Source: Armatimonadota bacterium (GTDB taxonomy: Bacteria; Armatimonadota; UBA5829; DSUL01). Taken from it: DNA of 64,000 nt. The stretch is from the NCBI GenBank assembly GCA_040769165.1, contig JAXGLP010000002.1:194657-258656 (forward strand). Direction: 5' to 3'. A program made the position numbers and the translations under genes. The notes below the pieces were generated by a model. That model was given only the letters and a program-made list of their open reading frames with translations, was not told the origin of the DNA and made no database searches. Numbering within the stretch: position 1 is the first letter of the stretch; the number at the start of each line of letters is the position of its first letter. This document shows, piece after piece, positions 22,450 through 61,093 of this stretch.

Positions 22450-24678
<2,229 letters not shown>

Positions 24679-24878
24679 TCAGCCAGCACGAGATGCGACT
24701 GGCTGCCTTACGCACAGAAAACCGCTTGCCCTGCCGCGGCATCCGGTGGTAGTATTGTTCTGTATCCGGTTACGCCACCACCCCGGCAGCACTGCTGCTG
24801 CCCGCTTTGCCGTCCGTCCGGGGCGGCCAGGGCTTCGGTGGATGCCCGGAGGACTCTTCCGGTTTGGAGGACACTTAC

Positions 24879-36648: not shown

Positions 36649-36674
36649 GTCTTTCGCGACGCCGCGTCTCCCTT

Positions 36675-39079: not shown

Positions 39080-39241
39080 GCGCTCTTCCGGGCGGCCTCA
39101 CCGCGACTTCCTCGCGGCCGCGCCGCCCCTGCCTCCTCTGCGAATCTCTGCCCCGCGCGCGGGGCAGATGCGATTATGTGGAACCGCCCAGGCCAGGCAA
39201 GGGCGGCTCCACGTTCACACGAGGCTTCTGTCAGCCCGGTT

Positions 39242-44459: not shown

Positions 44460-44493
44460 TACACAGGGAGTGTTCGCGCCATGCGTCCGGTTT

Positions 44494-45801: not shown

Positions 45802-46955
45802 CTCCGCGTCAACTCCCTGTAAAACTCCGCCAGCTTCCGCCCCTGAGTCCGGGCGTCAAAGTTCTCCTCGATATGCCTCCGCCCGGCGTCCTGCATGGCG
45901 CGCCAGCCGCCGGGGTCTTCAATGAGCCTGAGCAGGCAGCCAGCGAGAGCATCCACATCGCCCTCGGGCGCAAGATAGCCCGTCACGCCGTCCAGAATTA
46001 CCCCGGGAATGTCGCAGTGCCGCGTGCTGACGATCGCCATTCCGCTCGCCGCCATCTCGATGATGCTGACGGGCGCGCCGCCTTCCGTGTCGCCGTCCGA
46101 AGCGGTGATGCTCGGGGAGAGAAACACATGCGCGCGCGACGCCTCCTGACGCAGTTCCTCCCGTGTCAGAAAGCCCGCAAGCCGCACCCGCGCGCCGAGG
46201 CCGGTCTCCTCGATGGCGGCCAGTATTCTGCGCTCCTCCGCGCGGCTGCGCTCCTCGCCCGTCGCCCCGCCCACGATTGTGACTTCCAGTTCCGCCTCGT
46301 TCTGAACGCGCCCGAGCGCCCGGACCGCATCCGGGATCCCCTTCTTCTCCCGGAAGGACGCCGCAATGAGCACACGCAAGGGCTCGTCCGGCCGCCATGA
46401 TCGCGGCTCGCAGGGGATCTCGTCCAGCGTCACCCCCAGGTGGTGCACGGCGGCCTTCTCCGGCGGGCATCCGAGCGCGACGACCTCCTCGCGCATGTGC
46501 GGCCCCTCGCAGAGGACCCTGTCAACGATCTGAAACATCTCGATATACCGGCCACGCCAGCGGGGGTCCTTGCGCGGGTTCAGCGTCACATCCGCGCCGT
46601 AGAAGGTCACGACGTGCGCCATTTTGCAGGCCCGGGCCGCGCGGCGGTTCGCCCAGCCGATGTTGCCGAAGTGCGAATGGAGCAGACGAGCGCCCGTGCG
46701 CTTGGCCACGCTCGTGAGAAACGAAAGGTGGTCTCTGAGGCCGAGCTTCCTGATGCCCCTGTCGCACACGGATACCGGCAGCGGGCGGCGGGAGCTGACA
46801 TGCATGTTCGGCAATCCGAACTCGTCCGCGTTCTCCACGGTCTCGCAGACGATGTGGCTCTCGATGTCCTCCGGAAGGCAGCGCACCTGCGTGTGCATCC
46901 ACCCCTGAGTGCAGGGAAGCCAGATCGGATAGCTGTGAATGACCCGCAGGCTCAA
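45798..46955 (-). CDS. Glycosyltransferase family 4
   Basis: C-terminal GT1/GT4 domain (FLGF-like ...VFLSPS...EGGAPVSIIEMAASGMAIVSTRHCDIPGVILDGVTGYL). Start assigned to the TTG that overlaps the TGA stop of the upstream flippase gene (TTGA); the listed ORF runs on into the flippase gene. Confidence 0.7.
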   Translation of the reverse strand: MSLRVIHSYPIWLPCTQGWMHTQVRCLPEDIESHIVCETVENADEFGLPNMHVSSRRPLPVSVCDRGIRKLGLRDHLSFLTSVAKRTGARLLHSHFGNIGWANRRAARACKMAHVVTFYGADVTLNPRKDPRWRGRYIEMFQIVDRVLCEGPHMREEVVALGCPPEKAAVHHLGVTLDEIPCEPRSWRPDEPLRVLIAASFREKKGIPDAVRALGRVQNEAELEVTIVGGATGEERSRAEERRILAAIEETGLGARVRLAGFLTREELRQEASRAHVFLSPSITASDGDTEGGAPVSIIEMAASGMAIVSTRHCDIPGVILDGVTGYLAPEGDVDALAGCLLRLIEDPGGWRAMQDAGRRHIEENFDARTQGRKLAEFYRELTRS

Positions 46956-48409
46956 CGCTGTTTCCCCATCGCCGCCAGAAGCTCGCGCATCTGATGGCGG
47001 TTGATCAGCAGGCTGAAGCCTGTGTAAATAAGCGCGCCCGCCGGAACGAGCAGCAGAAGCTCCTGCCAGTCCATCATCCTGCCGCCAAGAAGGCGGGACG
47101 CGCCAACCAGCAGGGCGCACATAGCCAGCGCCGACGCCATCGGACGCCAGAGCGATTCGAAGAACGCCGCAAGCCGAAGCTGCACCAGCGAGAACGGGAT
47201 GGCGAGTCCGGGAATCGTCAGCAGAGTGGTCACGGCGGCGTACGCCGCCGCCACTCCGATGACGCCCCAGCGCAGGCCCACCGCAAACGCAATGAGCACC
47301 GCAACGCCCGCGCCGGCGCCCCACCGGAACAGCCAGTCGGCGCGTCCTTTTGCCTGATAGATCGGCCCCACCGTCGCCGTGACGGACTGCAGCATTCCCG
47401 CGGGCGCAAGGATCATCAGAGGGATCACCGACGGCCCCCACTGCGCCCCGAAAACCGTCGTGATGAGCGGCCGCGCAAGCGCCGCCATACCCAGCATCAG
47501 CGGGAAGCTCAGCGTCGCGATGCCGCTTACAGCCTTCAGGTAGGCGCGGCGGAAGCGTTCGTGGTCGTCCTGAAGCTCGCTGCACACGGGGAAGAGCACC
47601 CGGCTGGTGACGTCCGTGATGATCTGCAGCGGGAACAGCAGAAGCCTGTACGCCAGCGAATAGTATCCCAGCGGCCCCGCCCCGAGGAACTTGCCGATGA
47701 GCAGGTTGTCCGCGTTGCGGATGAAGTAGTTGAAGACGTTGAAGCTGGTGAGATTGAGGCTGTAGCTGCTGACCTGCTTCACCTCGCCCCAGTGAAACTC
47801 GAACGCGGGGCGCACCGGGCTCACCACCCACAACAGCACGGTCGAAACCAGCGCCAGCACCAGCGCCTGATAAACGAGGCTCCACACACCCGCGCCCGCC
47901 ATTGCGAAGCCGATGCCCGCCACCGCCGATACGAACGCCGAGACCAGATCCACCACCGCCAGCCCGCGGAACTGCAGCGACCGCTGCAGCATCGCCTGAT
48001 GCACCACCCCCAGGCCCGCCATCACGAAGCTGGCCGATAGCGCCCGGAGGATGCCCGTGAGAGGCGGCTGCTTGAAGAAGGCCGCCACCAGCGGGCTTGC
48101 GGCGAACACCATCACGGCGGCCGTGAGACCGAGCCCGGCGTTGATCCAGAACACGCTGGAGACCAGCCCGCGCGAGAGATCCCTGCGCTGTATTATCGCC
48201 GCCGACGTCCCGAGATCTCTCAGCAGGCTCGCGAACCCGGTCACAATCAGCGCCATCCCGAGAAGCCCGAAGTCCTTTGGCGAAAGCAGGCGCGCGAGGA
48301 TGGCGTTCGAGACGAACTGGATGCCGCTGCGGCCGGCCTGCGACGTGGACGCCCAGCGGAACCCGCTCGAGGCTCTCTGGGCCAGGCTCAGTTCCCCCGG
48401 GTCACCCAT
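46952..48409 (-). CDS. Polysaccharide/O-antigen flippase Wzx (MOP superfamily, PST family)
   Basis: About 12-14 TM segments. N-terminal GFASLLRDLGTSAAIIQR... pattern of polysaccharide biosynthesis (Wzx) proteins. Start at the internal Met (MGDPGELSL) is approximate. Confidence 0.7.
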   Translation of the reverse strand: MGDPGELSLAQRASSGFRWASTSQAGRSGIQFVSNAILARLLSPKDFGLLGMALIVTGFASLLRDLGTSAAIIQRRDLSRGLVSSVFWINAGLGLTAAVMVFAASPLVAAFFKQPPLTGILRALSASFVMAGLGVVHQAMLQRSLQFRGLAVVDLVSAFVSAVAGIGFAMAGAGVWSLVYQALVLALVSTVLLWVVSPVRPAFEFHWGEVKQVSSYSLNLTSFNVFNYFIRNADNLLIGKFLGAGPLGYYSLAYRLLLFPLQIITDVTSRVLFPVCSELQDDHERFRRAYLKAVSGIATLSFPLMLGMAALARPLITTVFGAQWGPSVIPLMILAPAGMLQSVTATVGPIYQAKGRADWLFRWGAGAGVAVLIAFAVGLRWGVIGVAAAYAAVTTLLTIPGLAIPFSLVQLRLAAFFESLWRPMASALAMCALLVGASRLLGGRMMDWQELLLLVPAGALIYTGFSLLINRHQMRELLAAMGKQR

Positions 48410-49254
48410 AGGTCCATAGTCTTCTCTTCCCGGCCTGTCTTCGCAAGCCCGATAAGGCCGTTTCTGACCCCGCACAGCGCATCCGCCATCGCGACAGCCG
48501 CCCCGGAGCGCAGAGGCGCGGGGAGCTTCCGCCGGATCCGGTCTACCCGGTCCCGCGCGTACCAGCGCCGGTTGTCTTCAATGAGCGCGCGCGGGTCGAG
48601 TTCGCGGATGTCGCGCCTCACCCCCCGCCCGGTGACCCAGTTGAGCGTGTTCAGTCCCTCCACTGGCCGCCCGAGAGCCTTCAGATAGGCCGCAGCAACG
48701 CGCCTGTTCATGCGCGGCAGAAAAGGCAGGCGGTAGTGCGGCTCGAAGAAACTGTTGTAGTCGGGCGCGCGCGCGTAGAGAACTCCCCCCGGCTTCAGCA
48801 CTCGAAGCATCTCGGAGAGGCACTGCCTCACATCCCGCACGTGCTCCAGAGTCTGGTACGTCGTCACCAGATCGAAGCTCGCATCCGGGAAGGGAAGCTC
48901 CTCCCCGACTCCCTCAACAAGGCGCTCGCGCCAGGCGTCCGGGTATCCGGCGGCGGCACTCTTGCGGTGGAAGTATTCGCGCTTCCACCCCTCCGGCTCG
49001 ATCCCCACCACGTCGCGCCCCGCGTGCAGCCCGTACAGAACGAACGTGCCGCAGCCCGCCGCCATATCCAGAATCCGCCCGCCGGCCGCGCCGCGCTGTT
49101 CGATCAGCGCCCAGCGCCCATCATAGTTCGCCGCGTCATTGAACCAGTTGTCCGTCACCCGCTCCAGCCACGCGCCCGGCGTCAGGCCGAACATACTCGC
49201 GGCCTCCTGGCGGATGTGCGCTTCCAGAAACTCCCGGACCTCTTGCAGAGTCAA
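48388..49254 (-). CDS. Class I SAM-dependent methyltransferase (MT1)
   Basis: Motif I ILDMAAGCGTF. Methyltransf_11-like region (DASFDLVTTYQTLEHVRDVRQCLSEMLRVLKPGGVLY). Start assigned to the TTG overlapping the TGA stop of the upstream methyltransferase (TTGA). Confidence 0.65.
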   Translation of the reverse strand: MTLQEVREFLEAHIRQEAASMFGLTPGAWLERVTDNWFNDAANYDGRWALIEQRGAAGGRILDMAAGCGTFVLYGLHAGRDVVGIEPEGWKREYFHRKSAAAGYPDAWRERLVEGVGEELPFPDASFDLVTTYQTLEHVRDVRQCLSEMLRVLKPGGVLYARAPDYNSFFEPHYRLPFLPRMNRRVAAAYLKALGRPVEGLNTLNWVTGRGVRRDIRELDPRALIEDNRRWYARDRVDRIRRKLPAPLRSGAAVAMADALCGVRNGLIGLAKTGREEKTMDLWVTRGN

Positions 49255-49937
49255 GGCTTCCTCGCGACAACCAGGTACATCCAGGTCCACTGCTCGGCGC
49301 GGTCGAGCCGGTCCATCAGCCCCGCCACAGACTGCGTCACGGCGCCCAGCGCGTCCACGAACCGCAGCCAGCGAAGGGGGCCCCGGTTCATCGACTGCAT
49401 TTTGTAGACAAGAAGCACGCCGAACGTCGTCCAGAAGCCCGACAGCGCTTTCAGTTCGACGATCTCGAACCCCGCCTTCTTGAAGAGATACTCCAGCCCG
49501 TATCTGCTGTAGCGATAGAAGTCCCGCGGCTCCTCGTGCACGTGCCAGATGAACGGCGCGGTATAGACGGCATGACCGCCCGGCTTCAGGATGCGCCAGC
49601 ACTCGCGAATCGCCTGTTCGGGCTCCTCGAGATGCTCCAGCACCGCCGTGCAGATAGCGCTGTCGAACGATGCGTCCGCCGCCGGGATGTCGTAGGCCGT
49701 TCCTGTCAGATCAACCCGGGACCGGTCGTGCTGGGTCCCTTCGTGGTCAATCCCGACATGCTCCTCGACGAACGGGGCGAGAAGATCGCTGTAGGGCTTA
49801 TCGCCGCAGCCGATGTCCGCCAGCCTGCCTTTCAGATACTGCCCGGCGCACCGCTTCAGCTCACGGTCGTGTATGCGCGCGGTGAGCAGGTTCGACCGCT
49901 TCCGGGCCCCCTGTGTTCCCCCGCGCATGGCGCTCAC
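49251..49937 (-). CDS. Class I SAM-dependent methyltransferase (MT2)
   Basis: Motif I LADIGCGDKPYS and region ADASFDSAICTAVLEHLEEPEQAIRECWRILKPGGHAVY. 4-nt overlap with the upstream ACP gene. Confidence 0.7.
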   Translation of the reverse strand: MSAMRGGTQGARKRSNLLTARIHDRELKRCAGQYLKGRLADIGCGDKPYSDLLAPFVEEHVGIDHEGTQHDRSRVDLTGTAYDIPAADASFDSAICTAVLEHLEEPEQAIRECWRILKPGGHAVYTAPFIWHVHEEPRDFYRYSRYGLEYLFKKAGFEIVELKALSGFWTTFGVLLVYKMQSMNRGPLRWLRFVDALGAVTQSVAGLMDRLDRAEQWTWMYLVVARKP

Positions 49938-50158
49938 ACCAGCTCCGCCAGCGTCTCGCGAATCTCCCGGTAGCTCGTCAGCTCGACCACCTGGTCATCG
50001 CTGAACTCGACGTCGAACTCCTCCTCCAGCGCAAGGATGAGATTCATATGCTTGAGCGAGTCCCACGACTCGACGGTGTTCGGCGAGGTATCGTCCTCGA
50101 TCTCGTCTTCTTCCAGGCCCAGAATGGCCGCCATCACTTCCCTGACTCGTTCTTCCAA
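49934..50158 (-). CDS. Acyl carrier protein (discrete, 74 aa)
   Basis: Phosphopantetheine-attachment site ESWDSLKHMNLILALEEEF (DSL). Acidic 4-helix ACP length. Confidence 0.8.
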   Translation of the reverse strand: MEERVREVMAAILGLEEDEIEDDTSPNTVESWDSLKHMNLILALEEEFDVEFSDDQVVELTSYREIRETLAELV

Positions 50159-51936
50159 AGCTGCTCCTCGGCAAATGATATTTCAACCAGGTCTTTCGTA
50201 TAGCGCACCCGGCGGCTGGCCGCCACTGTCAGGAACGTTTCGTCTCCGTCCTCGGCGGTAACAGAAAACCCGAACGACTGCCAGAACCCGGCCACCTGAG
50301 CGTTCTTGAGCGTGGCGATGTAGCTCGCCCGCCAGTCGCTGTTGCCCCACAACCGCTCGAGCGCCGACATCACCGTCTCCGCAAACGCATACTCCAGCTC
50401 GCGCCCCAGAATGCGGCAGCTCAGCAGATACGTGTCAATCACGCCCACGCTCCCGTCGCGCCGCGCGATCAGCACTCCCGTCAACCCCATGTCGCCGAAG
50501 CTGTCCCGCGCCGAAAGCGTCCACACCGACCAGTCCGGCGATGCCGCCATGGCCGCGACCTGCGCCTCGGTGTAGCGGCGCGTTGTGAGGTTGAACTGAT
50601 TCGTCTTCTGCGTGAGCTGCGCCGCGCGTGGCAGCTCCTCCGGCCGCACCGGATGGATGTCGGCCCGAATCTTGAGCGACCGCAGATATCCGTCCAGATC
50701 GCCGAATTTCGTCCGTGCCTCCCTGCGCCTGGCTTCTGTCTGATAGAGCGCGGCGCGCTGGCGGTCTTCGTCCGTCGCGCCCAGAGTATCGAACAGCCCG
50801 TCCCGCAGAAGCAGATCCGCGTAGGTGTACAACTTCGCGGGCGTCTGAAGCACCTCCACCTCCGGCAGCGCCTGGCGGATCAGTTCGCACTGAGCGGGGT
50901 CGTCATCAACAAAGACGAAGCTGTCGAGCCCGAGATTCAGCTCCTCCGCCAGCCCCGCGATGCCCGTCGCCTTGTCCTGCCAGTTTACCCTCCACCCCGC
51001 GAGATGCGACCGCTTCACAAGGCAGTCCGGATGGTTGTCGAGAACCTCCCAGACGTCTTCCTCGTTGTTCTTGCTGCACAGGCAGATGAGCACTCCCCGC
51101 TCGGCCAGATTCAGCACCGACCTCTGAAAGTCGAAATACGCTTTTCCGGGATACTCGTTGCGGTCGAGCTGTATGCCCTGCAGGCCTTCCTCCCCGACCA
51201 CGCCGCCCCACAGGGTGTTGTCGCAGTCCAGCACCAGGCACTTCTTGGTTCGCCCTTTCAGCGCCCGCGCGAGCTTCACGATCTCCAGCGCATACGCCTC
51301 CAGAAACGCCCGCCGGAACGGCGCCTTCGCCAGATACCAGTAACGCCGGTCCAGGCTCTCCTGCTCGCCCAGTACGCGCAGCAGGCGTTCCCAGTCCGCC
51401 ACGAAGAACCGGTCCGGCCGCTCCCGCGCGAACTCCCTGACAGATCGGTTCGTCTGGAGAATCTGCTCCTCGGCGCAGGATGTTGCACGTGAAACAATCG
51501 TGCCCCCGGCGGGATAGGACGGCGGGAGAAAGGTGTTGAGGACGATGAGCGCGTCCGTCTTCGAAGCTGCCATCTCCCACAAACCCGCAAGCCGGTCGCG
51601 AAGGCCCTCCGCGCTCCATCCGGGCGCGTTCCAGTCCGGCTCCAGGATGTCCAGCATCAGCGAGAGGACCAGAATGTCCGGCGCGGGCTCGAGCAGCCCC
51701 GAGCCTGCATCCATCAAATCCTGCGCCACGGTGTCGTACCCGCCGAACCGCACGTCCGGCCGGATGCCGGCGCGGTAGAGCTGGCTCTTCAGAAACGGCT
51801 CGACCGGCTCGATGGTGTAGTTGCGCAGAATGCTGATGCGGGCCGAAACGGCGGGCTGCTCCGGCGACCCCTCGGCCCGCGCGACGGCCGCGACAATTTC
51901 GGCAAGGCTCTCCCGTGCGTCCGGCGCGGCGCTCAC
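50134..51936 (-). CDS. HAD-IIIC family phosphatase, FkbH-like domain protein with C-terminal GNAT-like domain
   Basis: HAD motif I LVLDCDNTLWGGVVGEEG, the hallmark of the FkbH-like/HAD-IIIC subfamily. 600 aa. Followed immediately by a discrete ACP. Confidence 0.8.
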   Translation of the reverse strand: MSAAPDARESLAEIVAAVARAEGSPEQPAVSARISILRNYTIEPVEPFLKSQLYRAGIRPDVRFGGYDTVAQDLMDAGSGLLEPAPDILVLSLMLDILEPDWNAPGWSAEGLRDRLAGLWEMAASKTDALIVLNTFLPPSYPAGGTIVSRATSCAEEQILQTNRSVREFARERPDRFFVADWERLLRVLGEQESLDRRYWYLAKAPFRRAFLEAYALEIVKLARALKGRTKKCLVLDCDNTLWGGVVGEEGLQGIQLDRNEYPGKAYFDFQRSVLNLAERGVLICLCSKNNEEDVWEVLDNHPDCLVKRSHLAGWRVNWQDKATGIAGLAEELNLGLDSFVFVDDDPAQCELIRQALPEVEVLQTPAKLYTYADLLLRDGLFDTLGATDEDRQRAALYQTEARRREARTKFGDLDGYLRSLKIRADIHPVRPEELPRAAQLTQKTNQFNLTTRRYTEAQVAAMAASPDWSVWTLSARDSFGDMGLTGVLIARRDGSVGVIDTYLLSCRILGRELEYAFAETVMSALERLWGNSDWRASYIATLKNAQVAGFWQSFGFSVTAEDGDETFLTVAASRRVRYTKDLVEISFAEEQLWKNESGK

Positions 51937-52346
51937 TGCTCCTCCACAATCTCAATCAGCCCGAAGCCGCTGACATGGTAGAAGCTCACCTTCCGCCCGC
52001 CGAAAAGCGGCGCATCCTTCGCTGGGGACACAGGCAGCACGCGGTGGCCATCCGCTTTCAGGTTCGCCAGGGCCACCTGCGCATCGGGAGTGCTGTAGCA
52101 GATGTGATACACCATCTCGGGGTATCGGGACAGAATCGAGTCGAGCGGGCCCGGGCCGTCCGCCGGAAAGATGATCTCGACGGCCGGTTGACCGGGCGCC
52201 TCGCACCAGATCAGATTCACGTTCTGGCCCTCGTCGAACTGCCGCTCCCCTGCCGTGTATCCCATCCCTTCCAGAAACCGCACGGCGCGCTCGGGCTTGC
52301 TCACCGCCAGCCCCAGATGATGAAATGTCAGTCCGCAGCCGTTCAT
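51933..52346 (-). CDS. VOC family protein (glyoxalase/bleomycin-resistance/epimerase-like fold)
   Basis: Paired beta-alpha-beta-beta-beta modules (HHLGLAV...HICYST...). 137 aa. 4-nt overlap with the FkbH-like gene. Confidence 0.65.
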   Translation of the reverse strand: MNGCGLTFHHLGLAVSKPERAVRFLEGMGYTAGERQFDEGQNVNLIWCEAPGQPAVEIIFPADGPGPLDSILSRYPEMVYHICYSTPDAQVALANLKADGHRVLPVSPAKDAPLFGGRKVSFYHVSGFGLIEIVEEQ

Positions 52347-52349
52347 CGC

Positions 52350-53276
52350 CTACGTGCCGAGCACCAGCGCCAGATTGACCGGCAGCCGCCGCTCCTCGCA
52401 CTCCTCCAGCGAGAGTCCCGTATACGGAAACACCTCCTCATCCTCGATGCGCAGACCCGCCTCCTCCGTCATCCGCCGCACCGGCTCCACCGAATCGAAC
52501 AGATAGATATGATCGATCTCCGGGGCGTTGATCGCCGTCGTTACGTAGATGAAAGCATCCGGAGCGGCCAGTTCGTGCAACTTTCGCAGAAATGCGAGCG
52601 GCTGCTCGACATGCTCCAGCACCTCGCCAGCCACCAGAGCGCCGTACTTCCCCGGCGGCGCTTCGCACTCCAGAAAGTCCTGGCACACGAGCTCGTAGTT
52701 CTCCCACCTTCCGAAGAACCCGCTCTCGATGATGCTCCGGGTCATCTCGACGCTCTTCGGGCTGATATCAACGCCGGTGAACGTTTCGTACGCCGAGAGC
52801 CTCATGGCGCTCATCATATGGAACCCGTGCCCCGGCCCAACCTCCAGATAGTGCCCCCCGCGTTCGCGGGGCAGCTTCCGCAGGAACGATTTCCGCATCT
52901 TTCGATGGTTCGGCCACAGAAACGCCGTCAGCGCCAGGCCCGCCATATACTGCTCCATGTACTCCGGGTTCTGATACACGGCATCGGACACTTCGCTGTA
53001 CGTCGAGCAGCGATAGCGGCCGTGACGCTGAAAGTACATCTGCTCGCGCATCGTGTCTTTGACGAGCAGATTGTAGCAGGCCGCAAGGCTGGCCAGACTC
53101 TGCCCGGTGGCGAGGCAGTAGTCGAGATACGCCCCGAACCAATCCCGCTCCTCACCGTCGAGACCGGCCGCGGAGTTGCGGACGAACTGCTGCTGAAGCG
53201 GGTTCTGCGCGCCGATCTCCTGCACAAGCGCGGCGATGTTCTGCTGTGCCGGATTCTTCACGACCTGGCCGGGCAA
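52350..53276 (-). CDS. Class I SAM-dependent methyltransferase (MT3)
   Basis: Motif I YLEVGPGHGFHM, DISPKSV, and post-II ALVAGEVLEHVEQPLAFLRKLHELAAPDAFIYV. Confidence 0.65.
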   Translation of the reverse strand: MPGQVVKNPAQQNIAALVQEIGAQNPLQQQFVRNSAAGLDGEERDWFGAYLDYCLATGQSLASLAACYNLLVKDTMREQMYFQRHGRYRCSTYSEVSDAVYQNPEYMEQYMAGLALTAFLWPNHRKMRKSFLRKLPRERGGHYLEVGPGHGFHMMSAMRLSAYETFTGVDISPKSVEMTRSIIESGFFGRWENYELVCQDFLECEAPPGKYGALVAGEVLEHVEQPLAFLRKLHELAAPDAFIYVTTAINAPEIDHIYLFDSVEPVRRMTEEAGLRIEDEEVFPYTGLSLEECEERRLPVNLALVLGT

Positions 53277-53282
53277 ACCGCG

Positions 53283-53891
53283 CTACTCCTTCGCTTCCCC
53301 GGATCGGCGCCAGTCCAGCGACATCCGCGCGGGGTTGCCGACGAGCACGCCCGCTCTGTCGTACGTTCCCCGCGTGACGGACCCCGCCGAGACGAGAGTT
53401 CCCGGCTGCAGCACTGTCGGGTAGAGCACCATGCTGCCCGCCGCGAGCACGACGTCATCGGGGATGATGATATCGCCCGCTTCCGGCGGATACTTCTCGC
53501 TGAGCGCGCTGTCGCCCAGGTTCTGGTGCGTCAGAATGCGCGAGTACATCCCTATCCCGGCGCGATTGCCGATCGTCACCCTGCCGGTCAGGTCAATCAG
53601 CACATGCTTGCCGATATGCACATCGTCGCCGATTGTCAGATTCCGGAAGCTCCCGCGCGACTCGTGGATCGTGAGCCAGCGGTTGATGCGCGTGTTACGG
53701 CCGAGCTTTGCCCCGCCTATCTGAAGCACAAGGGCCGGGAACAGGCTGTCGTGAAGCACGTATGCCAGCGCCTCGTCGCCCGCAATCAGCCTCAGAAGCG
53801 CGGCTTTTGCGCGGTAGAAGACGCGGAGGTATGCGAAGAGCGCTCCTGTAATGAGCCTGCGCATGGCGTCCTCAGCCGAGCGACCTTTCAA
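53283..53891 (-). CDS. Sugar N/O-acetyltransferase, left-handed beta-helix (hexapeptide repeat) family
   Basis: Hexapeptide repeats (IGDDVHIGKHVLIDLTGRVTIGNRAGIGMYSRILT). 202 aa. Adjacent to the DegT aminotransferase, a WbpD/PglD-like arrangement. Confidence 0.7.
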   Translation of the reverse strand: MKGRSAEDAMRRLITGALFAYLRVFYRAKAALLRLIAGDEALAYVLHDSLFPALVLQIGGAKLGRNTRINRWLTIHESRGSFRNLTIGDDVHIGKHVLIDLTGRVTIGNRAGIGMYSRILTHQNLGDSALSEKYPPEAGDIIIPDDVVLAAGSMVLYPTVLQPGTLVSAGSVTRGTYDRAGVLVGNPARMSLDWRRSGEAKE

Positions 53892-55059
53892 CCGCGGCGA
53901 TCACGTCTTCCACGTCCTCGTCCGACAGCTTCGCCGACAGCGGAAGGCTCACGGTCTGACGTCCGATCGCCATGGCGTTCGGATAGTCCTCGGGCCGCCA
54001 CCCGTAGCGCTCCTGATAGTAGGGATGCTCGGCGATGCTCTGATAGTGCACGCCCACCCCTATGTTGTGAGCCGTCATCCTGTCCAGGAATGCGTCCCTG
54101 CCGGCCCCCGCGCGCGCCTCGTCCACAAGGATGGTGTAGAGATGATGCGCGTGCCTCGTGTCCGGCTCCGGATCGGCCGGCAGCCCGAGCGGCAGAGAGC
54201 GGAAGGCCGTGTTATAGCGCTCGCATATCTGACTGCGCCGCTGCCAGTACGGCTCCACGCGCTGGAGCTGATGGATCCCGATGGCCGCCTGGATGTCCAT
54301 CATGTTGTACTTGAAGCCGCACTCCACCACCTGATAGTGCCGGTACCCGGAATCCCCGAACCGCTTCCAGGCGTCCTTCGTCATCCCGTGAAGCGCCAGA
54401 ATCTTGACGCGTGCCGCATCCTCCTCGCGCTGCGTCACCACCATTCCGCCCTCGCCCGTGACGACGTTTTTCGTCACATAGAAGCTGAAGCACCCGAAGT
54501 CGCCGATCGTCCCCGCGGGACGCCCGTGATACTCCGTCTCGATGGCGTGCGCGCAGTCCTCGATGACCTTCAGCCCGTGCTCCTCAGCCAGGCTCCCGAG
54601 AGCGTCCATGTCGCATGCTCTTCCCGCGAAGTGCACCGGCACAATCGCCCGGGTCCTCTCCGTCACGCGGCGGGCGGCATCCGCGGGGTCCAGGTTCATG
54701 CTGCGCGGGTCGACATCGGCAATGACCGGCGTGCCGCCAGCGTGGATGATGGCGTTGACCGTGGCGCAGAACGTGAGCGCGGTGGTGATGACCTCGTCGC
54801 CCGGCTGGATTCCCGCCGCGAGCATGCTCAGATGCAGCGCCGCCGTGCACGAGTTGACCGCCACCGCCTGCTGTGCGCGGCGGTACGCTCGGAAGTCTTC
54901 CTCGAAGCGCGCGACCTTGGGACCCGTGCCGAGCCATCCGCTGCGCATGCAGCGGACGACTTCATCTACCTCGGCTTCTTCTATGGCCGGCGAGCCGAAT
55001 ACGAGGAACCTGTCTTTCGGGCGGACTGGCGGGCCTGTAAAGGTCTTTTCTGTTGCCAT
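53872..55059 (-). CDS. DegT/DnrJ/EryC1/StrS family PLP-dependent sugar aminotransferase
   Basis: DFRAYRRAQQAVAVNSCTAALHLSM...VIEDCAHA...SFYVTKNVVTGEGGMVV (PLP-binding Lys region). 395 aa. Confidence 0.85.
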   Translation of the reverse strand: MATEKTFTGPPVRPKDRFLVFGSPAIEEAEVDEVVRCMRSGWLGTGPKVARFEEDFRAYRRAQQAVAVNSCTAALHLSMLAAGIQPGDEVITTALTFCATVNAIIHAGGTPVIADVDPRSMNLDPADAARRVTERTRAIVPVHFAGRACDMDALGSLAEEHGLKVIEDCAHAIETEYHGRPAGTIGDFGCFSFYVTKNVVTGEGGMVVTQREEDAARVKILALHGMTKDAWKRFGDSGYRHYQVVECGFKYNMMDIQAAIGIHQLQRVEPYWQRRSQICERYNTAFRSLPLGLPADPEPDTRHAHHLYTILVDEARAGAGRDAFLDRMTAHNIGVGVHYQSIAEHPYYQERYGWRPEDYPNAMAIGRQTVSLPLSAKLSDEDVEDVIAAVERSLG

Positions 55060-55166
55060 GGAGGGTCTGCGATTTGACAGTCGGGCGCGGCCATTATACC
55101 ATGACGTTCCGGGGGACGCGATTGGCGCGCGGTGCTGGCGCCGGGGCGGTCTCCACCCGACTGAAC

Positions 55167-56279
55167 ATGCAGCAAACAGAGAAAAGACACTCCTCCCGGC
55201 GCAGCCGGATCGGCGAAGTGAGCAGGTGGGCGCTTGTCATCCTCGCTTCGGTTCTGGTCTGCCTGCTGGCGGGGTGGATCATCTCGGCGCGCACCGAAAA
55301 GCAGTACCAGGCCCGCGCAAGCATCTTCGTGCGCGGAAACTCCCGCGCAATCGCCCTTCCGTCCGAGCTCAGTTCGCTCGCCTCGATGATGCAGGGGCCG
55401 GAGCCGACCAGCTACGCGATGGCGCTGCTGGAGAGCGCCGACTTCGCCCGCGAGATCGTCAAGAAGCTTTCGCTGCTCTCGAACCCGGATTTCACGGACG
55501 GGCGGGCGTTCACAATCTCGACAGCGCCGCGCACTCTGCAGAAGATGACCCGCGTCGAGGACAACCGCAAAGGGCTGATCAGTGTTCAGGCCACGAGCAA
55601 GTCGCCGGAGCTTGCCGCCGAACTCGCCAACGGCTACGTTGACCACCTGATGAGCAAAGTCGCAAGCGCCAACGCGCGCAAGCGCATCTACATCGGCGGC
55701 AAAATCGGCGATCTGGAGGCCGAACTGAACGCCCTCGAAGAGCGCCAGCGCGAGCTGAGCTCCCGCGAGTCCATCGTCAATCTCCCCGAGCAGACCCGGG
55801 CCGCCGTGCAGGCTCTGGCCCAGCTCGAGAGCCGCCTGCAGGAGATCGAAACATCGCTGAAGGGCGTCAACAGCGACCTGACGAACACCGGCCAGCTTCC
55901 GGAGCTGGCCAAGCTCAAGGCGAAGAAAAGCTCCCTCGAAGCTCAGCAGGCCGAGGTGCGGCGCGCAATCGCGGACAGCAACGCGCGCCTGAAGTCGGTG
56001 CCGGCCGCCGCTCTCGAACAGGCGCGCCTGCAGCGCGAGATAGACCTGAAAGCCAAGCTCTTCCAGAGCCTCTCCGAACAGCACCAGCTCGCGCAGATAG
56101 ACGAGCAATCCGACGCCAGAGTGTACCAGGTCGTTGACCGCGCCCACGTGCCCGTCCGCCCGGCGCGCCCGAATCTCCCCGTCAACCTCGCGCTGTCTCT
56201 GATTCTTGGCGCCGCGCTCGGAATCGCCATCAACATCCTGATCTCCGACCTCGCGAGCGAGGCGGCGGGTGACTTCTGA
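55167..56279 (+). CDS. Polysaccharide chain-length determinant / polysaccharide co-polymerase (Wzz/GumC-like)
   Basis: N-terminal TM (VSRWALVILASVLVCLLAGWIISA), long periplasmic coiled coil (LEAELNALEERQRELS..., LQEIETSLKG...), C-terminal TM (LALSLILGAALGIAINIL). Start at the internal ATG (MQQTEKR). Confidence 0.65.
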   Translation: MQQTEKRHSSRRSRIGEVSRWALVILASVLVCLLAGWIISARTEKQYQARASIFVRGNSRAIALPSELSSLASMMQGPEPTSYAMALLESADFAREIVKKLSLLSNPDFTDGRAFTISTAPRTLQKMTRVEDNRKGLISVQATSKSPELAAELANGYVDHLMSKVASANARKRIYIGGKIGDLEAELNALEERQRELSSRESIVNLPEQTRAAVQALAQLESRLQEIETSLKGVNSDLTNTGQLPELAKLKAKKSSLEAQQAEVRRAIADSNARLKSVPAAALEQARLQREIDLKAKLFQSLSEQHQLAQIDEQSDARVYQVVDRAHVPVRPARPNLPVNLALSLILGAALGIAINILISDLASEAAGDF

Positions 56280-57450: not shown

Positions 57451-57519
57451 TCAAGGTTTACTGCGTTGTGCTGCCGCGGACGCCACACAACAACACCGCG
57501 GCAAACTGAAGGCTGTTTT

Positions 57520-60955: not shown

Positions 60956-60970
60956 AAGGCCGAGACCCGG

Positions 60971-61047
60971 CCCCGGAGGGATTATGATCCCCGGAGGGAT
61001 TATGATCCCCGGAGGGATTATGATCCCCGGAGGGATTGTGCCCCCCG
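60971..61047 (+). repeat. Tandem array (about 4 units) of an 18-nt element CCCCGGAGGGATTATGAT in the rmlA leader; each unit contains GGAGGG + ATG
   Basis: ccccggagggattatgat x3 then the degenerate ccccggagggattgtgcc, read directly. Each unit has a near-palindromic core GGGAT-tatg-ATCCC. The array ends about 45 nt upstream of the rmlA ATG. Confidence 0.6.
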
Positions 61048-61093
61048 GCGGCGCATACTACAGGAAGTCCGGGTAACAGGAAGGTCTGATACG

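What the first reader, a model, noticed from the sequence alone, without database searches (positions are those of the whole stretch)
48388..55059. FkbH-like glyceryl-ACP module with three methyltransferases inside a Wzx/Wzy polysaccharide locus: candidate O-methylated glyceroyl (or related) acyl decoration of an amino sugar
Ten genes lie on one strand, mostly with 4-nt overlaps: Wzx flippase, MT1, MT2, discrete ACP, FkbH-like HAD-IIIC protein (motif LVLDCDNTLWGG) with a GNAT-like C-terminus, VOC-fold enzyme, MT3, LbH acetyltransferase and DegT aminotransferase. In polyketide pathways the FkbH/ACP pair is the established route from 1,3-bisphosphoglycerate to glyceryl-ACP, the precursor of methoxymalonyl-ACP. 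Pairing it with three SAM methyltransferases and a VOC enzyme, next to enzymes that make an N-acyl amino sugar, suggests a dedicated pathway. That pathway would build a small methylated hydroxy-acyl group, for example a mono- or di-O-methylglyceroyl group, on ACP and transfer it to a sugar of the repeat unit. Such decorations are rare and biochemically poorly characterised, and none is predictable for this lineage.
Basis: partly seen in the sequence, partly recalled or inferred. Interest (0 to 1): 0.7.

Follow-up and report, generated by a model that had tools for sequence, protein, structure and literature searches.

The report
Glycerate-derived acyl cassette decorating a polysaccharide
Inside an O-antigen-type polysaccharide gene cluster of an uncultured Armatimonadota bacterium sits a conserved gene unit that most likely loads a glycolysis-derived glyceryl group onto a carrier protein, methylates it and attaches it to an amino sugar. 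This route is widespread but has never been tested, and it could explain "glyceroyl" sugar decorations whose genes are still unknown.

Summary
The genes are real and lie as described, with small errors in gene count, overlaps and coordinates.

**What is there.** The unit DegT–LbH–MT–VOC–FkbH–ACP–MT–MT opens a 13-gene minus-strand operon that continues into Wzx, three GTs and Wzy.
- The 600-aa protein is a true FkbH-family member. It scores 272 bits on TIGR01686 (cut-off 147).
- It keeps the DxDxT/S/K/D HAD motifs and the SCR cysteine shared with PKS-linked FkbH proteins.
- Its predicted fold is SGNH-like + HAD + GNAT.
- The ACP keeps its WDS serine.
- No FkbK/FkbI dehydrogenases, KS or PKS are present, so this is not methoxymalonate or tetronate chemistry.

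**Comparative evidence.**
- FkbH–ACP is a near-obligate pair, directly adjacent in 73 of 80 genomes from at least 17 phyla.
- The UbiG-like MT-A and the VOC are recurrent optional partners.
- The LbH belongs to a small clade that sits after an orthologous DegT and beside a carrier-protein acyl module. That module is either FkbH-based or adenylating-ligase-based.
- This points to an acyl-carrier-dependent N-acyltransferase with swappable acyl donors.

**Interpretation.** Only one of the three MTs is cassette-linked, and the module is common rather than rare. C. jejuni cj1299–cj1302, linked to 2,3-di-O-methylglyceroyl-Pse, is the nearest precedent. Nothing has been shown biochemically.

The parts
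53872..55059 (-). DegT-family PLP aminotransferase of C4-aminotransferase type. It is closest to ArnB, PseC and perosamine synthases. It is the first gene of the operon.
   Evidence: PF01041 scores 421 bits. The NCBIfam ArnB model gives 359 bits and the PseC model 348 bits, both below their cut-offs. The best PDB match is ArnB 8sng at 283 bits. Orthologues of 72% and 68% identity precede the same LbH clade in L095 and L097.
53283..53864 (-). Left-handed beta-helix acyltransferase (193 aa). It is the proposed acyl-carrier-protein-dependent N-acyltransferase.
   Evidence: - It carries a Hexapep domain, and the WcaF-family model gives 42 bits.
- The AF2 model has pLDDT 95.6, with a long N-terminal helix followed by the LbH.
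- Foldseek neighbours are MAT/GAT O-acetyltransferases and the sugar N-acyltransferases AntD, Pcryo_0619 and WlbB.
- The clade is small: 6 representatives at E<=1e-30 among 1.84 billion.
- Members sit beside carrier-protein acyl modules.
52350..53276 (-). MT-A, a class I SAM methyltransferase (308 aa, UbiG-like) with a conserved N-terminal extension of about 120 aa. It is proposed to O-methylate the ACP-bound glyceryl group.
   Evidence: Methyltransf_23 scores 62 bits and the UbiG model gives E = 1e-8. A homologue lies adjacent to FkbH-ACP in 24 of 80 genomes and in a Paenibacillus flagellin island. Conserved motifs are shown.
51933..52346 (-). VOC-fold metalloenzyme (137 aa, Glyoxalase_4). 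It is proposed to be a C2 epimerase or isomerase acting on the 2-hydroxyacyl thioester.
   Evidence: PF13669 scores 62 bits. The methylmalonyl-CoA epimerase model gives 35.7 bits, below its cut-off of 115. PDB neighbours are glyoxalase I and MCE. H10, E57, H81 and E132 are conserved in 30 homologues. A homologue lies directly upstream of FkbH in 22 of 80 genomes.
50134..51936 (-). FkbH-like three-domain enzyme (600 aa): SGNH-like N-domain, HAD-IIIC phosphatase domain, and a GNAT-fold C-domain carrying Cys507.
   Evidence: - TIGR01686 scores 272 bits against a cut-off of 146.65, and TIGR01681 scores 57 against 35.75.
- D237, D239, T241, S288, K322, D338, T445, N446, Q447, N449 and S506-C507-R508 are invariant (residues 445-449 read TNQFN). 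The alignment includes a methoxymalonyl-type and a tetronate-type FkbH.
- A 53-sequence alignment agrees for all of these except T445, which is only nearly invariant there.
49934..50158 (-). Discrete acyl carrier protein (74 aa, or 66 aa from the internal ATG).
   Evidence: PF00550 scores 36 bits against a cut-off of 20.8. The WDS serine is conserved at 90% or more in 81 homologues. An ACP lies directly downstream of FkbH in 73 of 80 genomes.
49251..49937 (-). MT-B, a class I SAM methyltransferase (228 aa). Its target is unknown: the second hydroxyl of the acyl group or a sugar hydroxyl.
   Evidence: Methyltransf_11 scores 64 bits, and the DVU_1556-family model gives 51 bits, below its cut-off. 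Across the session's loci, tblastn homologues occur in only 4.
48388..49194 (-). MT-C, a class I SAM methyltransferase (268 aa). Its target is unknown.
   Evidence: Methyltransf_11 scores 66 bits. The 268-aa gene call comes from identical contigs. Weak homologues lie near FkbH-ACP in 6 loci.
46952..48409 (-). Wzx/MOP flippase.
   Evidence: Polysacc_synt_3 scores 308 bits, and the MOP flippase model NF007773 scores 336 bits against a cut-off of 273.
42353..46898 (-). Rest of the operon: GT4 (45798-46898), GT4-like (44494-45780), Wzy-like polymerase (43254-44459) and GT2 (42353-43264).
   Evidence: Pfam hits. Gene calls on identical contigs.
55074..62158 (+). Divergent sugar-supply and assembly operon:
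- Wzz-like chain-length protein (55074-56279)
- GT4 (56269-57450)
- TviC-like 4-epimerase (57517-58467)
- WecA/MraY-family initiating transferase (58464-59993)
- UXS/ArnA-like SDR (59990-60955)
- RmlA-long nucleotidylyltransferase (61094-62158)
   Evidence: Pfam and NCBIfam hits; the rmlA_long model scores 500 bits against a cut-off of 320. The SDR's best PDB match is UDP-glucuronate decarboxylase at 170 bits, and it carries the motif LLASTSEVYG. The same arrangement is seen in L004.
41035..42339 (+). NDP-sugar 6-dehydrogenase (WecC/TviB-like), convergent with the end of the operon.
   Evidence: TIGR03026 scores 430 bits against a cut-off of 190.

Best explanation
The unit DegT-LbH-MT-A-VOC-FkbH-ACP (plus MT-B and MT-C) is a self-contained pathway that puts a small, O-methylated, glycerate-derived N-acyl group on an amino sugar of a Wzx/Wzy-assembled surface polysaccharide.

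Proposed steps:
1. The FkbH-like enzyme takes 1,3-bisphosphoglycerate, removes the 3-phosphate in its HAD domain, holds the glyceryl group on Cys507 of its GNAT-fold domain, and passes it to the phosphopantetheine arm of the adjacent ACP. This is inferred from family membership.
2. The VOC metalloenzyme epimerises or isomerises C2 of the 2-hydroxyacyl thioester. This inference is weak.
3. MT-A O-methylates the ACP-bound glyceryl group. MT-B and/or MT-C add a second O-methyl or methylate sugar hydroxyls. Both points are inferred.
4. DegT makes an NDP-4-amino sugar from a 4-keto intermediate. The product is either a 4-amino-4-deoxy-pentose of the L-Ara4N type or a 4-amino-4,6-dideoxyhexose. The family assignment is shown; the sugar identity is unresolved.
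5. The LbH enzyme transfers the acyl group from the carrier protein to that amine. This is inferred from synteny.
6. The glycosyltransferases build the repeat unit on undecaprenyl phosphate, starting from the WecA-like enzyme. Wzx flips it, Wzy polymerises it, and the Wzz-like protein sets chain length. These are standard family roles.
For: **FkbH membership**
- HMM scores lie above the curated cut-offs.
- The HAD motifs and the TNQFN and S-C-R motifs are invariant across glycan-type, tetronate-type (Methylosinus pOB3b3) and methoxymalonyl-type (S. canus) FkbH proteins.
- The predicted fold is SGNH-like + HAD + GNAT.

**ACP**
- It passes the PP-binding model, and its serine is conserved.
- FkbH-ACP adjacency holds in 73 of 80 species-representative genomes.

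**Not polyketide chemistry**
- No FkbK/FkbI-type dehydrogenase, KS, PKS or NRPS is present anywhere in the 64 kb.

**Cassette conservation**
- LbH-MT-A-VOC-FkbH-ACP recurs in unrelated taxa and contexts: L004, L005, L008, L019, L025, L096 and the P0261 locus.
- A Paenibacillus flagellin/Maf/nonulosonate island carries GNAT-MT-FkbH-ACP.

**LbH as the coupling enzyme**
- Its narrow clade follows an orthologous DegT of 68-84% identity in L004, L095 and L097.
- In 7 of the 8 distinct loci examined it lies beside a carrier-protein acyl module. In five of these the module is FkbH-ACP: the window, L004, L005, the P0261 locus and L096.
- In L093 the module reads as unannotated gene fragments that I take to be a broken FkbH, followed by ACP, MaoC and SDR.
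- In L097 the module is an adenylating ligase with a small carrier protein that passes the PP-binding cut-off.
- In L095 the putative carrier scores below that cut-off (14 bits against 20.8) and is called from its LLDSL motif.
- The eighth locus, L094, shows no identified carrier.
- The operon holds no other enzyme that could unload the ACP or N-acylate the DegT product.

**Precedents in the literature**
- FkbH plus ACP gives glyceryl-ACP (PMC7489565).
- An FkbH domain plus an O-methyltransferase domain gives 2-O-methylglyceric acid in suomilides (PMC13122637).
- C. jejuni 11168 makes 2,3-di-O-methylglyceroyl nonulosonates (PMC3068675; bioRxiv 10.64898/2026.04.20.719630).
- Its glycosylation locus is annotated with an ACP (Cj1299), a UbiG-like MT (Cj1300), an 'epimerase' (cj1301) and an fkbH-domain gene (cj1302) (PMC6109747, PMC8405632, PMC7099621).
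Against: - There are no chemical or biochemical data for this organism or for any glycan-locus FkbH.
- This FkbH clade is only 28-33% identical to PKS-linked members, so use of 1,3-BPG is an extrapolation.
- The LbH's closest solved folds are acetyl-CoA-dependent O-acetyltransferases. Every solved sugar LbH N-acyltransferase uses a CoA donor. Use of an acyl-ACP rests on gene neighbourhood only.
- One LbH-clade member (L094) shows no identified carrier nearby.
- MT-A regiochemistry and the VOC reaction are guesses. MT-A and VOC occur independently of one another in most genomes.
- MT-B and MT-C are not conserved partners.
- The acceptor sugar is ambiguous. RmlA-long suggests dTDP-hexose chemistry, whereas the SDR (TSE motif, best match UXS) and DegT (best match ArnB) suggest UDP-GlcA to 4-keto-pentose to Ara4N chemistry.
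- Homology to the C. jejuni genes could not be tested at sequence level.
Confidence: 0.55

Rival explanations
1. The LbH enzyme is an ordinary acetyl-CoA-dependent N-acetyltransferase, or a WcaF-like O-acetyltransferase, acting on the DegT product or the repeat unit. The FkbH/ACP/MT-A/VOC product would then go to a different acceptor through an unidentified transferase. That acceptor could be an O-ester on another sugar, a lipid or a protein.
For: The best NCBIfam similarity is to WcaF-family acetyltransferases. The Foldseek top hits are acetyl-CoA O-acetyltransferases such as VCA0836, MAT and GAT, with TM 0.65-0.69. A catalytic-type His113 is conserved. In L008 the cassette is not near a DegT and lies beside FemAB-like and MprF-like genes.
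Against: The operon encodes no other acyltransferase that could unload the ACP. This narrow LbH clade lies next to a carrier-protein acyl module in 7 of the 8 loci examined, whichever loading chemistry is used. The LbH position is conserved immediately upstream of MT-A even where its sequence is replaced (L008, L019, L025).
Confidence: 0.2
2. The acyl group is plain glyceroyl, possibly C2-epimerised, and is not methylated. All three methyltransferases would then O-methylate sugar hydroxyls of the repeat unit, as is common in environmental O-antigens.
For: MT-B and MT-C are generic Methyltransf_11 enzymes that are not conserved with the cassette. N-glyceroyl without methylation is known, as in T. 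forsythia Pse5Am7Gra (PMC5378307). Most FkbH-ACP loci lack an MT-A homologue (56 of 80).
Against: MT-A is tightly packed between LbH and VOC-FkbH, with gaps of 6 and 3 nt. Its homologues flank FkbH-ACP in 24 of 80 genomes, in otherwise unrelated loci, including a flagellin glycosylation island. The C. jejuni locus, which makes a di-O-methylglyceroyl group, has a UbiG-like MT between its ACP and FkbH genes.
Confidence: 0.12
3. This FkbH-like clade loads something other than glycerate, for example another phosphorylated or activated small hydroxy acid. The decoration would then be a different acyl group.
For: Identity to characterised-type FkbH proteins is only 28-33%. The extra SGNH-like N-domain has no known role. 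Partner enzymes are diverse across loci: MaoC-SDR, sulfotransferase and radical SAM.
Against: All catalytic motifs are invariant across the clades. The tetronate-type FkbH proteins, which are accepted as glyceryl-ACP synthases, have the same three-domain length class (L012, 633 aa). Every FkbH-family enzyme described in the papers read uses 1,3-BPG (PMC7489565, PMC13122637).
Confidence: 0.08
4. The FkbH/ACP genes belong to secondary metabolism, supplying a methoxymalonyl-ACP extender or a tetronate building block, and merely happen to lie in a polysaccharide locus.
For: FkbH/ACP is best known from PKS pathways. Plasmid-borne homologues lie in such clusters.
Against: The 64-kb window has no FkbK-like or FkbI-like dehydrogenase, no FabH-like KS and no PKS or NRPS. 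The genes are packed inside a DegT-to-Wzx/Wzy operon. That synteny is conserved in a relative whose FkbH is 68% identical.
Confidence: 0.02

Closest known systems
FkbH/FkbJ (OzmB/OzmE, ZmaN/ZmaD): the glyceryl-ACP-forming first step of the methoxymalonyl- or hydroxymalonyl-ACP pathways
   Same: The HAD-IIIC and C-terminal domains are homologous and share invariant DxDxT, S, K, D, TNQFN and S-C-R motifs. A dedicated discrete ACP lies adjacent.
   Different: No FkbK/FkbI dehydrogenases, no FkbG-type O-methyltransferase and no PKS are present. The protein has an extra N-terminal SGNH-like domain of about 225 aa, whereas the S. canus FkbH is 341 aa. The product would be transferred to a sugar rather than used as a polyketide extender.
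Tetronate 'glycerate-utilisation' FkbH-like/ACP pairs (for example Mad7/Mad8; the Methylosinus OB3b pOB3b3 cluster)
   Same: The FkbH-like protein has the same three-domain, roughly 600-aa architecture (33% identity over residues 31-560), followed directly by an ACP (PMC7489565).
   Different: There is no FabH-like condensing enzyme, no Agg4/Agg5-like pair and no PKS. The partners here are a methyltransferase, a VOC enzyme, an LbH acyltransferase and a sugar aminotransferase.
Campylobacter jejuni NCTC 11168 flagellin-glycosylation genes cj1299 (acpP2), cj1300 (UbiG-like MT), cj1301 ('epimerase') and cj1302 (fkbH-domain), together with the 2,3-di-O-methylglyceroyl pseudaminic/legionaminic acid glycoforms
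   Same: The same four protein types lie next to each other in a glycan locus. The strain's known product is exactly the kind of O-methylated glyceroyl decoration predicted here.
   Different: The acceptor there is a nonulosonic acid on flagellin (Maf-dependent), not a Wzx/Wzy polysaccharide. Gene order differs. No paper found assigns these genes to the modification. Sequence homology to the window proteins could not be tested with the tools available. That cj1301 is a VOC-fold protein is my assumption.
FkbH-OMT(-ST) loading modules of aeruginosin-type NRPSs (suomilide/banyaside BslA)
   Same: FkbH-type loading of glycerate from 1,3-BPG onto a carrier is followed by O-methylation, giving 2-O-methylglyceric acid (PMC13122637). 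Sulfotransferases also accompany FkbH-ACP in 20 acidobacterial loci.
   Different: In BslA the domains are fused into an NRPS and the acyl group starts a peptide. Here the proteins are discrete and the proposed acceptor is an amino sugar.
LbH amino-sugar N-acyltransferases with unusual acyl donors (AntD of the anthrose pathway; VioB, QdtC, WlbB). From my own knowledge, also the ACP/KS/KR-containing 'viosamine island' of Pseudomonas syringae and the RfbK-O tetronate module of Vibrio cholerae O1.
   Same: There is a DegT aminotransferase plus LbH acyltransferase pair making an N-acyl 4-amino sugar. The LbH fold is similar to AntD (TM 0.5-0.58). The concept of building a non-acetyl acyl group with dedicated carrier-protein enzymes is shared.
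   Different: AntD and its relatives use acyl-CoA donors. The LbH here belongs to a separate small clade with a long N-terminal helix, and its donor is inferred to be an acyl carrier protein. The acyl-building chemistry (FkbH) is different.
N-glyceroyl nonulosonate of Tannerella forsythia (Pse5Am7Gra)
   Same: It is a glycerate-derived N-acyl decoration on a surface glycan (PMC5378307).
   Different: The genes responsible are unknown; that paper calls their identification 'a major challenge'. No methylation is involved, and the sugar is different.

Membership tests
FkbH family (TIGR01686 / HAD-IIIC TIGR01681) | Profile score above the curated cut-off over the whole FkbH domain | tested here: met
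   TIGR01686 scores 272 bits against a cut-off of 146.65, covering model positions 2-320 of 323. TIGR01681 scores 57.3 against 35.75.
FkbH family (TIGR01686 / HAD-IIIC TIGR01681) | HAD catalytic motifs (DxDxT, Ser/Thr, Lys, Asp) | tested here: met
   D237, D239, T241, S288, K322 and D338 are invariant in an alignment with PKS-linked FkbH proteins and in 53 homologues.
FkbH family (TIGR01686 / HAD-IIIC TIGR01681) | Conserved cysteine of the C-terminal acyl-transfer domain. That it is the glyceryl-S-enzyme site is my recollection of the OzmB work and was not re-read here. | tested here: met
   [not shown]
FkbH family (TIGR01686 / HAD-IIIC TIGR01681) | Dedicated carrier protein with a phosphopantetheine serine next to the gene | tested here: met
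   PF00550 scores 36 bits. The WDS serine is conserved at 90% or more. An ACP lies directly downstream in 73 of 80 genomes.
FkbH family (TIGR01686 / HAD-IIIC TIGR01681) | Converts 1,3-bisphosphoglycerate into glyceryl-S-ACP | not testable with these tools
   This needs an enzyme assay or intact-protein MS.
Methoxymalonyl-ACP pathway (FkbG-FkbK type) | FkbK-like 3-hydroxyacyl-CoA dehydrogenase and FkbI-like acyl-CoA dehydrogenase next to FkbH/ACP, with a PKS that uses the extender | tested here: not met
   None is present in the operon or elsewhere in the 64-kb window. Compare the S. canus cassette 3HADH-ACP-ACAD-FkbH.
Tetronate glycerate-utilisation operon | FabH-like condensing enzyme plus an acyltransferase/dehydratase pair and a PKS | tested here: not met
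   These are absent from the window. Compare Methylosinus pOB3b3.
C. jejuni cj1299-cj1302-type glycan modification cassette | Adjacent ACP, UbiG-like methyltransferase, 'epimerase' and FkbH-domain genes inside a glycan locus | tested here: met
   This holds at the level of published annotation only (PMC6109747, PMC8405632, PMC7099621). The window has MT-A, VOC, FkbH and ACP.
C. jejuni cj1299-cj1302-type glycan modification cassette | Sequence orthology to the C. jejuni proteins, and a 2,3-di-O-methylglyceroyl product | not testable with these tools
   No C. jejuni chromosome sequence is reachable through the collections. Product chemistry needs MS or NMR.
Wzx/Wzy-dependent polysaccharide locus | Flippase, polymerase, chain-length protein, initiating phosphoglycosyl transferase and glycosyltransferases | tested here: met
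   The locus has Wzx (336 bits against a cut-off of 273), a weak Wzy_C hit on a 401-aa polytopic protein, a Wzz/GNVR protein, a WecA/MraY-family transferase, and GT4 and GT2 genes.
LbH amino-sugar N-acyltransferases (AntD/QdtC/WlbB/VioB type) | Left-handed beta-helix fold and pairing with a DegT aminotransferase | tested here: met
   The AF2 model has pLDDT 95.6, and Foldseek hits AntD, WlbB and Pcryo_0619. DegT lies immediately upstream here and in L004, L005, L095, L097 and the P0261 locus.
LbH amino-sugar N-acyltransferases (AntD/QdtC/WlbB/VioB type) | Acyl-CoA as donor; N- rather than O-acylation | tested here: inconclusive
   Sequence similarity to the solved members is marginal (E of 1e-3 or weaker). 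The best structural neighbours are O-acetyltransferases. Gene context points to a carrier-protein donor.
Methylmalonyl-CoA epimerase (VOC superfamily) | Equivalog-level profile match | tested here: not met
   TIGR03081 scores 35.7 bits against a cut-off of 114.95. Only superfamily membership holds: Glyoxalase_4 scores 62 bits, and the H/E/H/E metal ligands are conserved.

The most novel reading that the evidence does not exclude
The window holds one example of a large and unrecognised class of glycan-tailoring systems. In these, an FkbH-ACP pair diverts 1,3-bisphosphoglycerate into carrier-bound C3 acyl groups. Interchangeable partners then diversify those groups:
- O-methyltransferase
- VOC epimerase
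- MaoC-SDR dehydratase/reductase
- sulfotransferase
- radical SAM enzymes

Dedicated acyltransferases then move the products onto sugars. The LbH clade found here would be the first amino-sugar N-acyltransferase family shown to take its acyl group from a carrier protein rather than from CoA. Its donor modules would be swappable between FkbH and adenylating-ligase types. If so, this would supply the missing genetics for N-glyceroyl, di-O-methylglyceroyl and related decorations, such as lactyl-like or sulfated ones, on flagellins, S-layers and O-antigens.
Probability: 0.4. Interest if true: 0.65.

Novelty: new variant of a known kind. Interest (0 to 1): 0.5.

Why it matters
- **An open question becomes testable.** Non-acetyl N-acyl groups on bacterial surface sugars shape antigenicity, phage recognition and immune evasion. 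The genes for glyceroyl-type groups are still unassigned: for T. forsythia Pse5Am7Gra this was called "a major challenge", and no paper found assigns the C. jejuni di-O-methylglyceroyl genes.
- **A defined candidate gene set.** The analysis gives a testable unit (FkbH, ACP, UbiG-like MT, VOC, and an LbH or GNAT transferase) and shows it across at least 17 phyla.
- **A new donor type for sugar N-acylation.** It suggests a small LbH clade that uses carrier-protein-bound donors, which would be a new donor type for sugar N-acylation outside lipid A.
- **A correction to genome mining.** FkbH/ACP hits are routinely read as polyketide markers, yet many of them lie in glycan loci.

Tried and rejected
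- **Methoxymalonyl or tetronate secondary metabolism.** Rejected. There are no FkbK/FkbI dehydrogenases, FabH-like KS, PKS or NRPS in the 64 kb.
- **Sequence test against C. jejuni cj1298-cj1302.** Not possible. The single genome-contig scan returned the 80 best loci, none of them Campylobacter. No other collection holds that chromosome. I relied on published annotations instead.
- **Literature on FkbH in glycans.** Nine searches found only one open-access paper that mentions both FkbH and glycan, and only as a gene-content note. The search was too loose and returned noise.
- **PDB sequence searches.**
  - The FkbH-like protein hits only the uncharacterised B. fragilis BF1531 fragment 3slr.
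  - MT-A hits only Hen1 weakly.
  - VOC hits only structural-genomics 'glyoxalase I' entries and MCE.
  - None of these gives a function.
- **Fold search of the LbH.** It could not separate N- from O-acyltransferase or CoA from ACP donors.
- **Deciding the acceptor sugar.** Unresolved. RmlA-long is above its cut-off, but the adjacent SDR is UXS/ArnA-like with a TSE motif, and DegT scores about equally on the ArnB and PseC models.
- **Terminator and promoter scan.** Site counts are at background, so the scan gives only weak support for a single transcript.
- **S. meliloti pSymB homologue (L011).** The record is unannotated and was not pursued.
- **Long antisense ORFs (51915-54314 +, 54981-56321 -).** Dismissed as high-GC shadow frames that fail the third-position GC test.

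Full report
**1. Observation**

The window is about 65% G+C, so mechanical ORF lists are full of shadow frames. A third-position GC filter, together with gene calls on identical public contigs, gives a clean map.

On the minus strand, transcribed from high to low coordinates, lie:
- DegT, 53872-55059
- LbH, 53283-53864
- MT-A, 52350-53276
- VOC, 51933-52346
- FkbH-like, 50134-51936
- ACP, 49934-50158
- MT-B, 49251-49937
- MT-C, 48388-49194
- Wzx, 46952-48409
- two GT4-type genes, a Wzy-like polymerase and a GT2, ending at 42353

The quoted motif is present as CLVLDCDNTLWGG at residues 233-245.

Junctions are tight: gaps of 7, 6 and 3 nt; overlaps of 4, 25 and 4 nt; then a 56-nt gap and a 22-nt overlap. 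Terminator-like sites are at background.

- nine genes are named, not ten
- only two junctions are 4-nt overlaps
- Wzx lies outside the stated coordinates
- the listed order is the reverse of transcription

The substance is confirmed. The same locus occurs on several independent metagenome contigs. A relative whose FkbH is 68% identical keeps the whole 20-kb arrangement.

**2. Surroundings and organism**

A divergent plus-strand operon (55074-62158) encodes:
- a Wzz/GNVR chain-length protein
- a GT4
- a TviC-like 4-epimerase
- a WecA/MraY-family initiating transferase
- an SDR
- an RmlA-long nucleotidylyltransferase

An NDP-sugar dehydrogenase lies at 41035-42339. This is therefore a complete Wzx/Wzy-type polysaccharide locus.

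GyrB (22450-24678) is 77-78% identical to Armatimonadota MAG proteins. DUF1559 pilin-like genes are present. The organism recurs in many metagenomes and in NCBI MAGs, and carries only generic annotation. No PKS, NRPS, KS or FkbK/FkbI-type gene occurs anywhere in the 64 kb.

**3. Is the HAD-IIIC protein a real FkbH?**

- It scores 272 bits on TIGR01686 (cut-off 146.65) over the full model, and 57 bits on TIGR01681.
- tblastn against plasmids recovered two bona fide natural-product contexts:
  - a canonical methoxymalonyl cassette in Streptomyces canus (3-hydroxyacyl-CoA DH, ACP, acyl-CoA DH, FkbH)
  - a tetronate-type cluster in Methylosinus trichosporium pOB3b3 (FabH-like, a 633-aa FkbH-like protein, ACP and an E2-like acyltransferase, next to a PKS)
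- These two were aligned with the window protein and four glycan-locus homologues. The alignment shows invariant D237-x-D239-x-T241, S288, K322, D338, the TNQFN motif at 445-449 and S506-C507-R508.
- The same columns are invariant in 53 homologues, apart from T445, which is nearly invariant.

- The ACP passes PF00550 and keeps its WDS serine, which is conserved at 90% or more in 81 homologues.

**4. Comparative genomics of the module**

The family is very large: at least 8000 hits, mostly around 600 aa, annotated 'HAD-IIIC family phosphatase' or 'FkbH-like protein'.

A scan of species-representative genomes gave 80 loci from at least 17 phyla, with a best identity of only 53-54%. tblastn of the window's proteins against these loci gave:

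| Feature relative to FkbH | Loci (of 80) |
|---|---|
| ACP directly downstream | 73 |
| ACP somewhere in the locus | 77 |
| MT-A homologue adjacent | 24 |
| VOC directly upstream | 22 |
| MT-A and VOC both present | 4 |
| DegT within 8 kb | 20 |

The full LbH-MT-A-VOC-FkbH-ACP cassette recurs in L004, L005, L008/L009, L019, L025, L096 and the P0261 locus, in otherwise different contexts. A Paenibacillus flagellin/Maf/nonulosonate island has GNAT-MT-FkbH-ACP.

Clustering of neighbouring ORFs shows other recurrent partners:
- a MaoC-dehydratase/SDR fusion, 33 loci
- a sulfotransferase, 20 loci
- an adenylating ligase, 13 loci
- an unannotatable protein of about 376 aa directly after the ACP, 22 loci

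FkbH-ACP is therefore a conserved core, and tailoring enzymes are exchanged around it.

**5. The acyltransferase step**

The LbH is the only enzyme in the operon that could either unload the ACP or N-acylate the DegT product.

Its clade is narrow:
- About 60 proteins share 45% identity or more in the word-indexed search.
- An exhaustive HMMER scan of 1.84 billion representatives finds only 6 at E<=1e-30.

I looked at eight distinct loci that carry clade members.
- Five have FkbH-ACP next to the LbH: the window, L004, L005, the P0261 locus and L096.
- L093 has unannotated gene fragments that I read as a broken FkbH, followed by ACP, MaoC and SDR.
- L095 and L097 have an adenylating ligase instead, with a small putative carrier protein (LLDSL and LIDSI motifs). 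The L097 protein passes the PP-binding cut-off at 23.2 bits against 20.8; the L095 protein does not (14 bits, E 0.063). An SDR or an acyl-CoA dehydrogenase accompanies them.
- L094 has no identified carrier.

In L095 and L097 the upstream DegT is 72% and 68% identical to the window's DegT, and the LbH is 55% and 53% identical. So the same DegT-LbH pair is coupled to different carrier-based acyl-building modules. This is the strongest argument that the LbH clade transfers a carrier-protein-bound acyl group to the DegT-made amine.

Structure does not settle the matter. The AF2 model (pLDDT 95.6) is closest to the acetyl-CoA O-acetyltransferases VCA0836, MAT and GAT (TM 0.65-0.69). The amino-sugar N-acyltransferases AntD, Pcryo_0619 and WlbB come just behind.

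**6. The other enzymes**

- **MT-A** is UbiG-like. It has a conserved N-terminal extension of about 120 aa and a conserved N-x-P-x-x-D-H motif. Its recurrent adjacency to FkbH-ACP supports action on the carrier-bound acyl group.
- **VOC** keeps an H10/E57/H81/E132 metal tetrad and resembles glyoxalase I and methylmalonyl-CoA epimerase. Both of those act next to a thioester. C2 epimerisation of glyceryl-ACP is the most economical guess, but it remains a guess.
- **MT-B and MT-C** are generic Methyltransf_11 enzymes that are not conserved with the cassette. However, the gene tables and tblastn hits of L004, L005, L008, L019, L025 and the P0261 locus each show at least one extra class I methyltransferase nearby. 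A second O-methylation therefore remains possible.

**7. Acceptor sugar**

- DegT is closest to C4 aminotransferases. It scores 359 bits on the ArnB model, 348 on PseC, and 283 bits against PDB ArnB.
- The SDR beside RmlA-long starts at M43. It carries LLASTSEVYG, the TSE motif of UXS and ArnA, not the TDE of RmlB. Its best PDB match is UDP-glucuronate decarboxylase at 170 bits.
- RmlA-long is above its equivalog cut-off.

The acceptor is either a 4-amino-4-deoxy-pentose of the L-Ara4N type or a 4-amino-4,6-dideoxyhexose. I could not decide between them.

**8. Comparison with what is known**

- The first step works like FkbH/FkbJ, but the locus fails the membership tests for the methoxymalonyl and tetronate pathways.
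- The closest functional precedent is C. jejuni NCTC 11168.
  - Its flagellin-glycosylation locus is annotated with acpP2 (Cj1299), a UbiG-like MT (Cj1300), an 'epimerase' (cj1301) and an fkbH-domain gene (cj1302).
  - The strain makes 2,3-di-O-methylglyceroyl nonulosonates.
  - No paper I could search connects those genes to the modification. Only one open-access paper mentions FkbH and glycan together.
- For T. forsythia Pse5Am7Gra, the genetic basis of the N-glyceroyl group was explicitly called an open challenge.
- In natural products, an FkbH domain plus an O-methyltransferase domain gives 2-O-methylglyceric acid in suomilides.
- AntD and VioB show the DegT plus LbH logic with CoA donors.

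**9. Verdict**

- only one of the three methyltransferases is demonstrably part of the module
- the module is widespread rather than rare
- the acceptor sugar is uncertain

The new element from this analysis is a narrow LbH clade that couples an orthologous DegT to interchangeable carrier-protein acyl modules.

Everything mechanistic is inference from homology and synteny. My confidence in the overall model is about 0.55. It is a new variant of known kinds of system (FkbH/ACP loading, and DegT plus LbH N-acylation). Interest is moderate, because it makes a long-standing gap in glycan biosynthesis directly testable, preferably in C. jejuni.

Noticed in passing
L013-L092 (for example L022 6796-7989, L068 5065-6129, L062 10011-11390, L077 10098-11234, L096 8711-11072): FkbH-ACP pairs in genomes of at least 17 phyla carry alternative partner sets:
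- a MaoC-dehydratase/SDR fusion (33 loci), which could turn glyceryl-ACP into a pyruvoyl- or lactyl-type group
- a sulfotransferase (20 loci, Acidobacteriota)
- an adenylating ligase (13 loci)
- B12-radical SAM enzymes
- a protein of about 376 aa with no Pfam hit, sitting directly after the ACP in 22 loci
   Followed up: partly
L095 1439-5590 and L097 3-4188: Orthologues of the window's DegT (72% and 68% identity) and LbH (55% and 53%) are coupled to an adenylating ligase rather than to FkbH. A small putative carrier protein accompanies it (LLDSL and LIDSI motifs); only the L097 one passes the PP-binding cut-off. An SDR or an acyl-CoA dehydrogenase is also present. The same acceptor chemistry thus appears with a different acyl donor module.
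   Followed up: partly
window 59990-62158 (+): An RmlA-long glucose-1-phosphate thymidylyltransferase (above its equivalog cut-off) sits next to an SDR. The SDR's best matches are UDP-glucuronate decarboxylases, and it carries the UXS/ArnA-type LLASTSEVYG motif, not an RmlB-type 4,6-dehydratase motif. This is an odd pairing, and it leaves the nucleotide-sugar route unclear.
   Followed up: partly
[not shown]
   Followed up: partly
window 51915-54314 (+) and 54981-56321 (-): Very long antisense ORFs (799 aa and 446 aa) overlap MT-A/LbH/DegT and the Wzz gene. They fail the third-position GC test and have no family hits, so they are shadow frames of a high-GC genome.
   Followed up: yes
window 55060-55166: The start of the Wzz-like gene is ambiguous: TTG at 55074 in public gene calls, or ATG at 55167. 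A sigma-70-like TTGACA-17-TACCAT at 55074-55102 would fit the later start and a 107-nt divergent promoter region.
   Followed up: no
L011 8524-10410 (Sinorhizobium meliloti pSymB; 40 records): Many S. meliloti pSymB megaplasmids encode an FkbH-like protein (about 36% identity over residues 117-573) that is unannotated in several records. Its context was not examined.
   Followed up: no
window 36675-39097 (-), 24753-25631 (+), 35704-36759 (-), 17962-19623 (+): A LytTR-type two-component pair lies a few kb from the polysaccharide locus. Elsewhere in the window there are two DUF1559/N-methyl pilin-like proteins, typical of Armatimonadota and the PVC group, and an apiosidase-like glycoside hydrolase.
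   Followed up: no
[not shown]
   Followed up: partly
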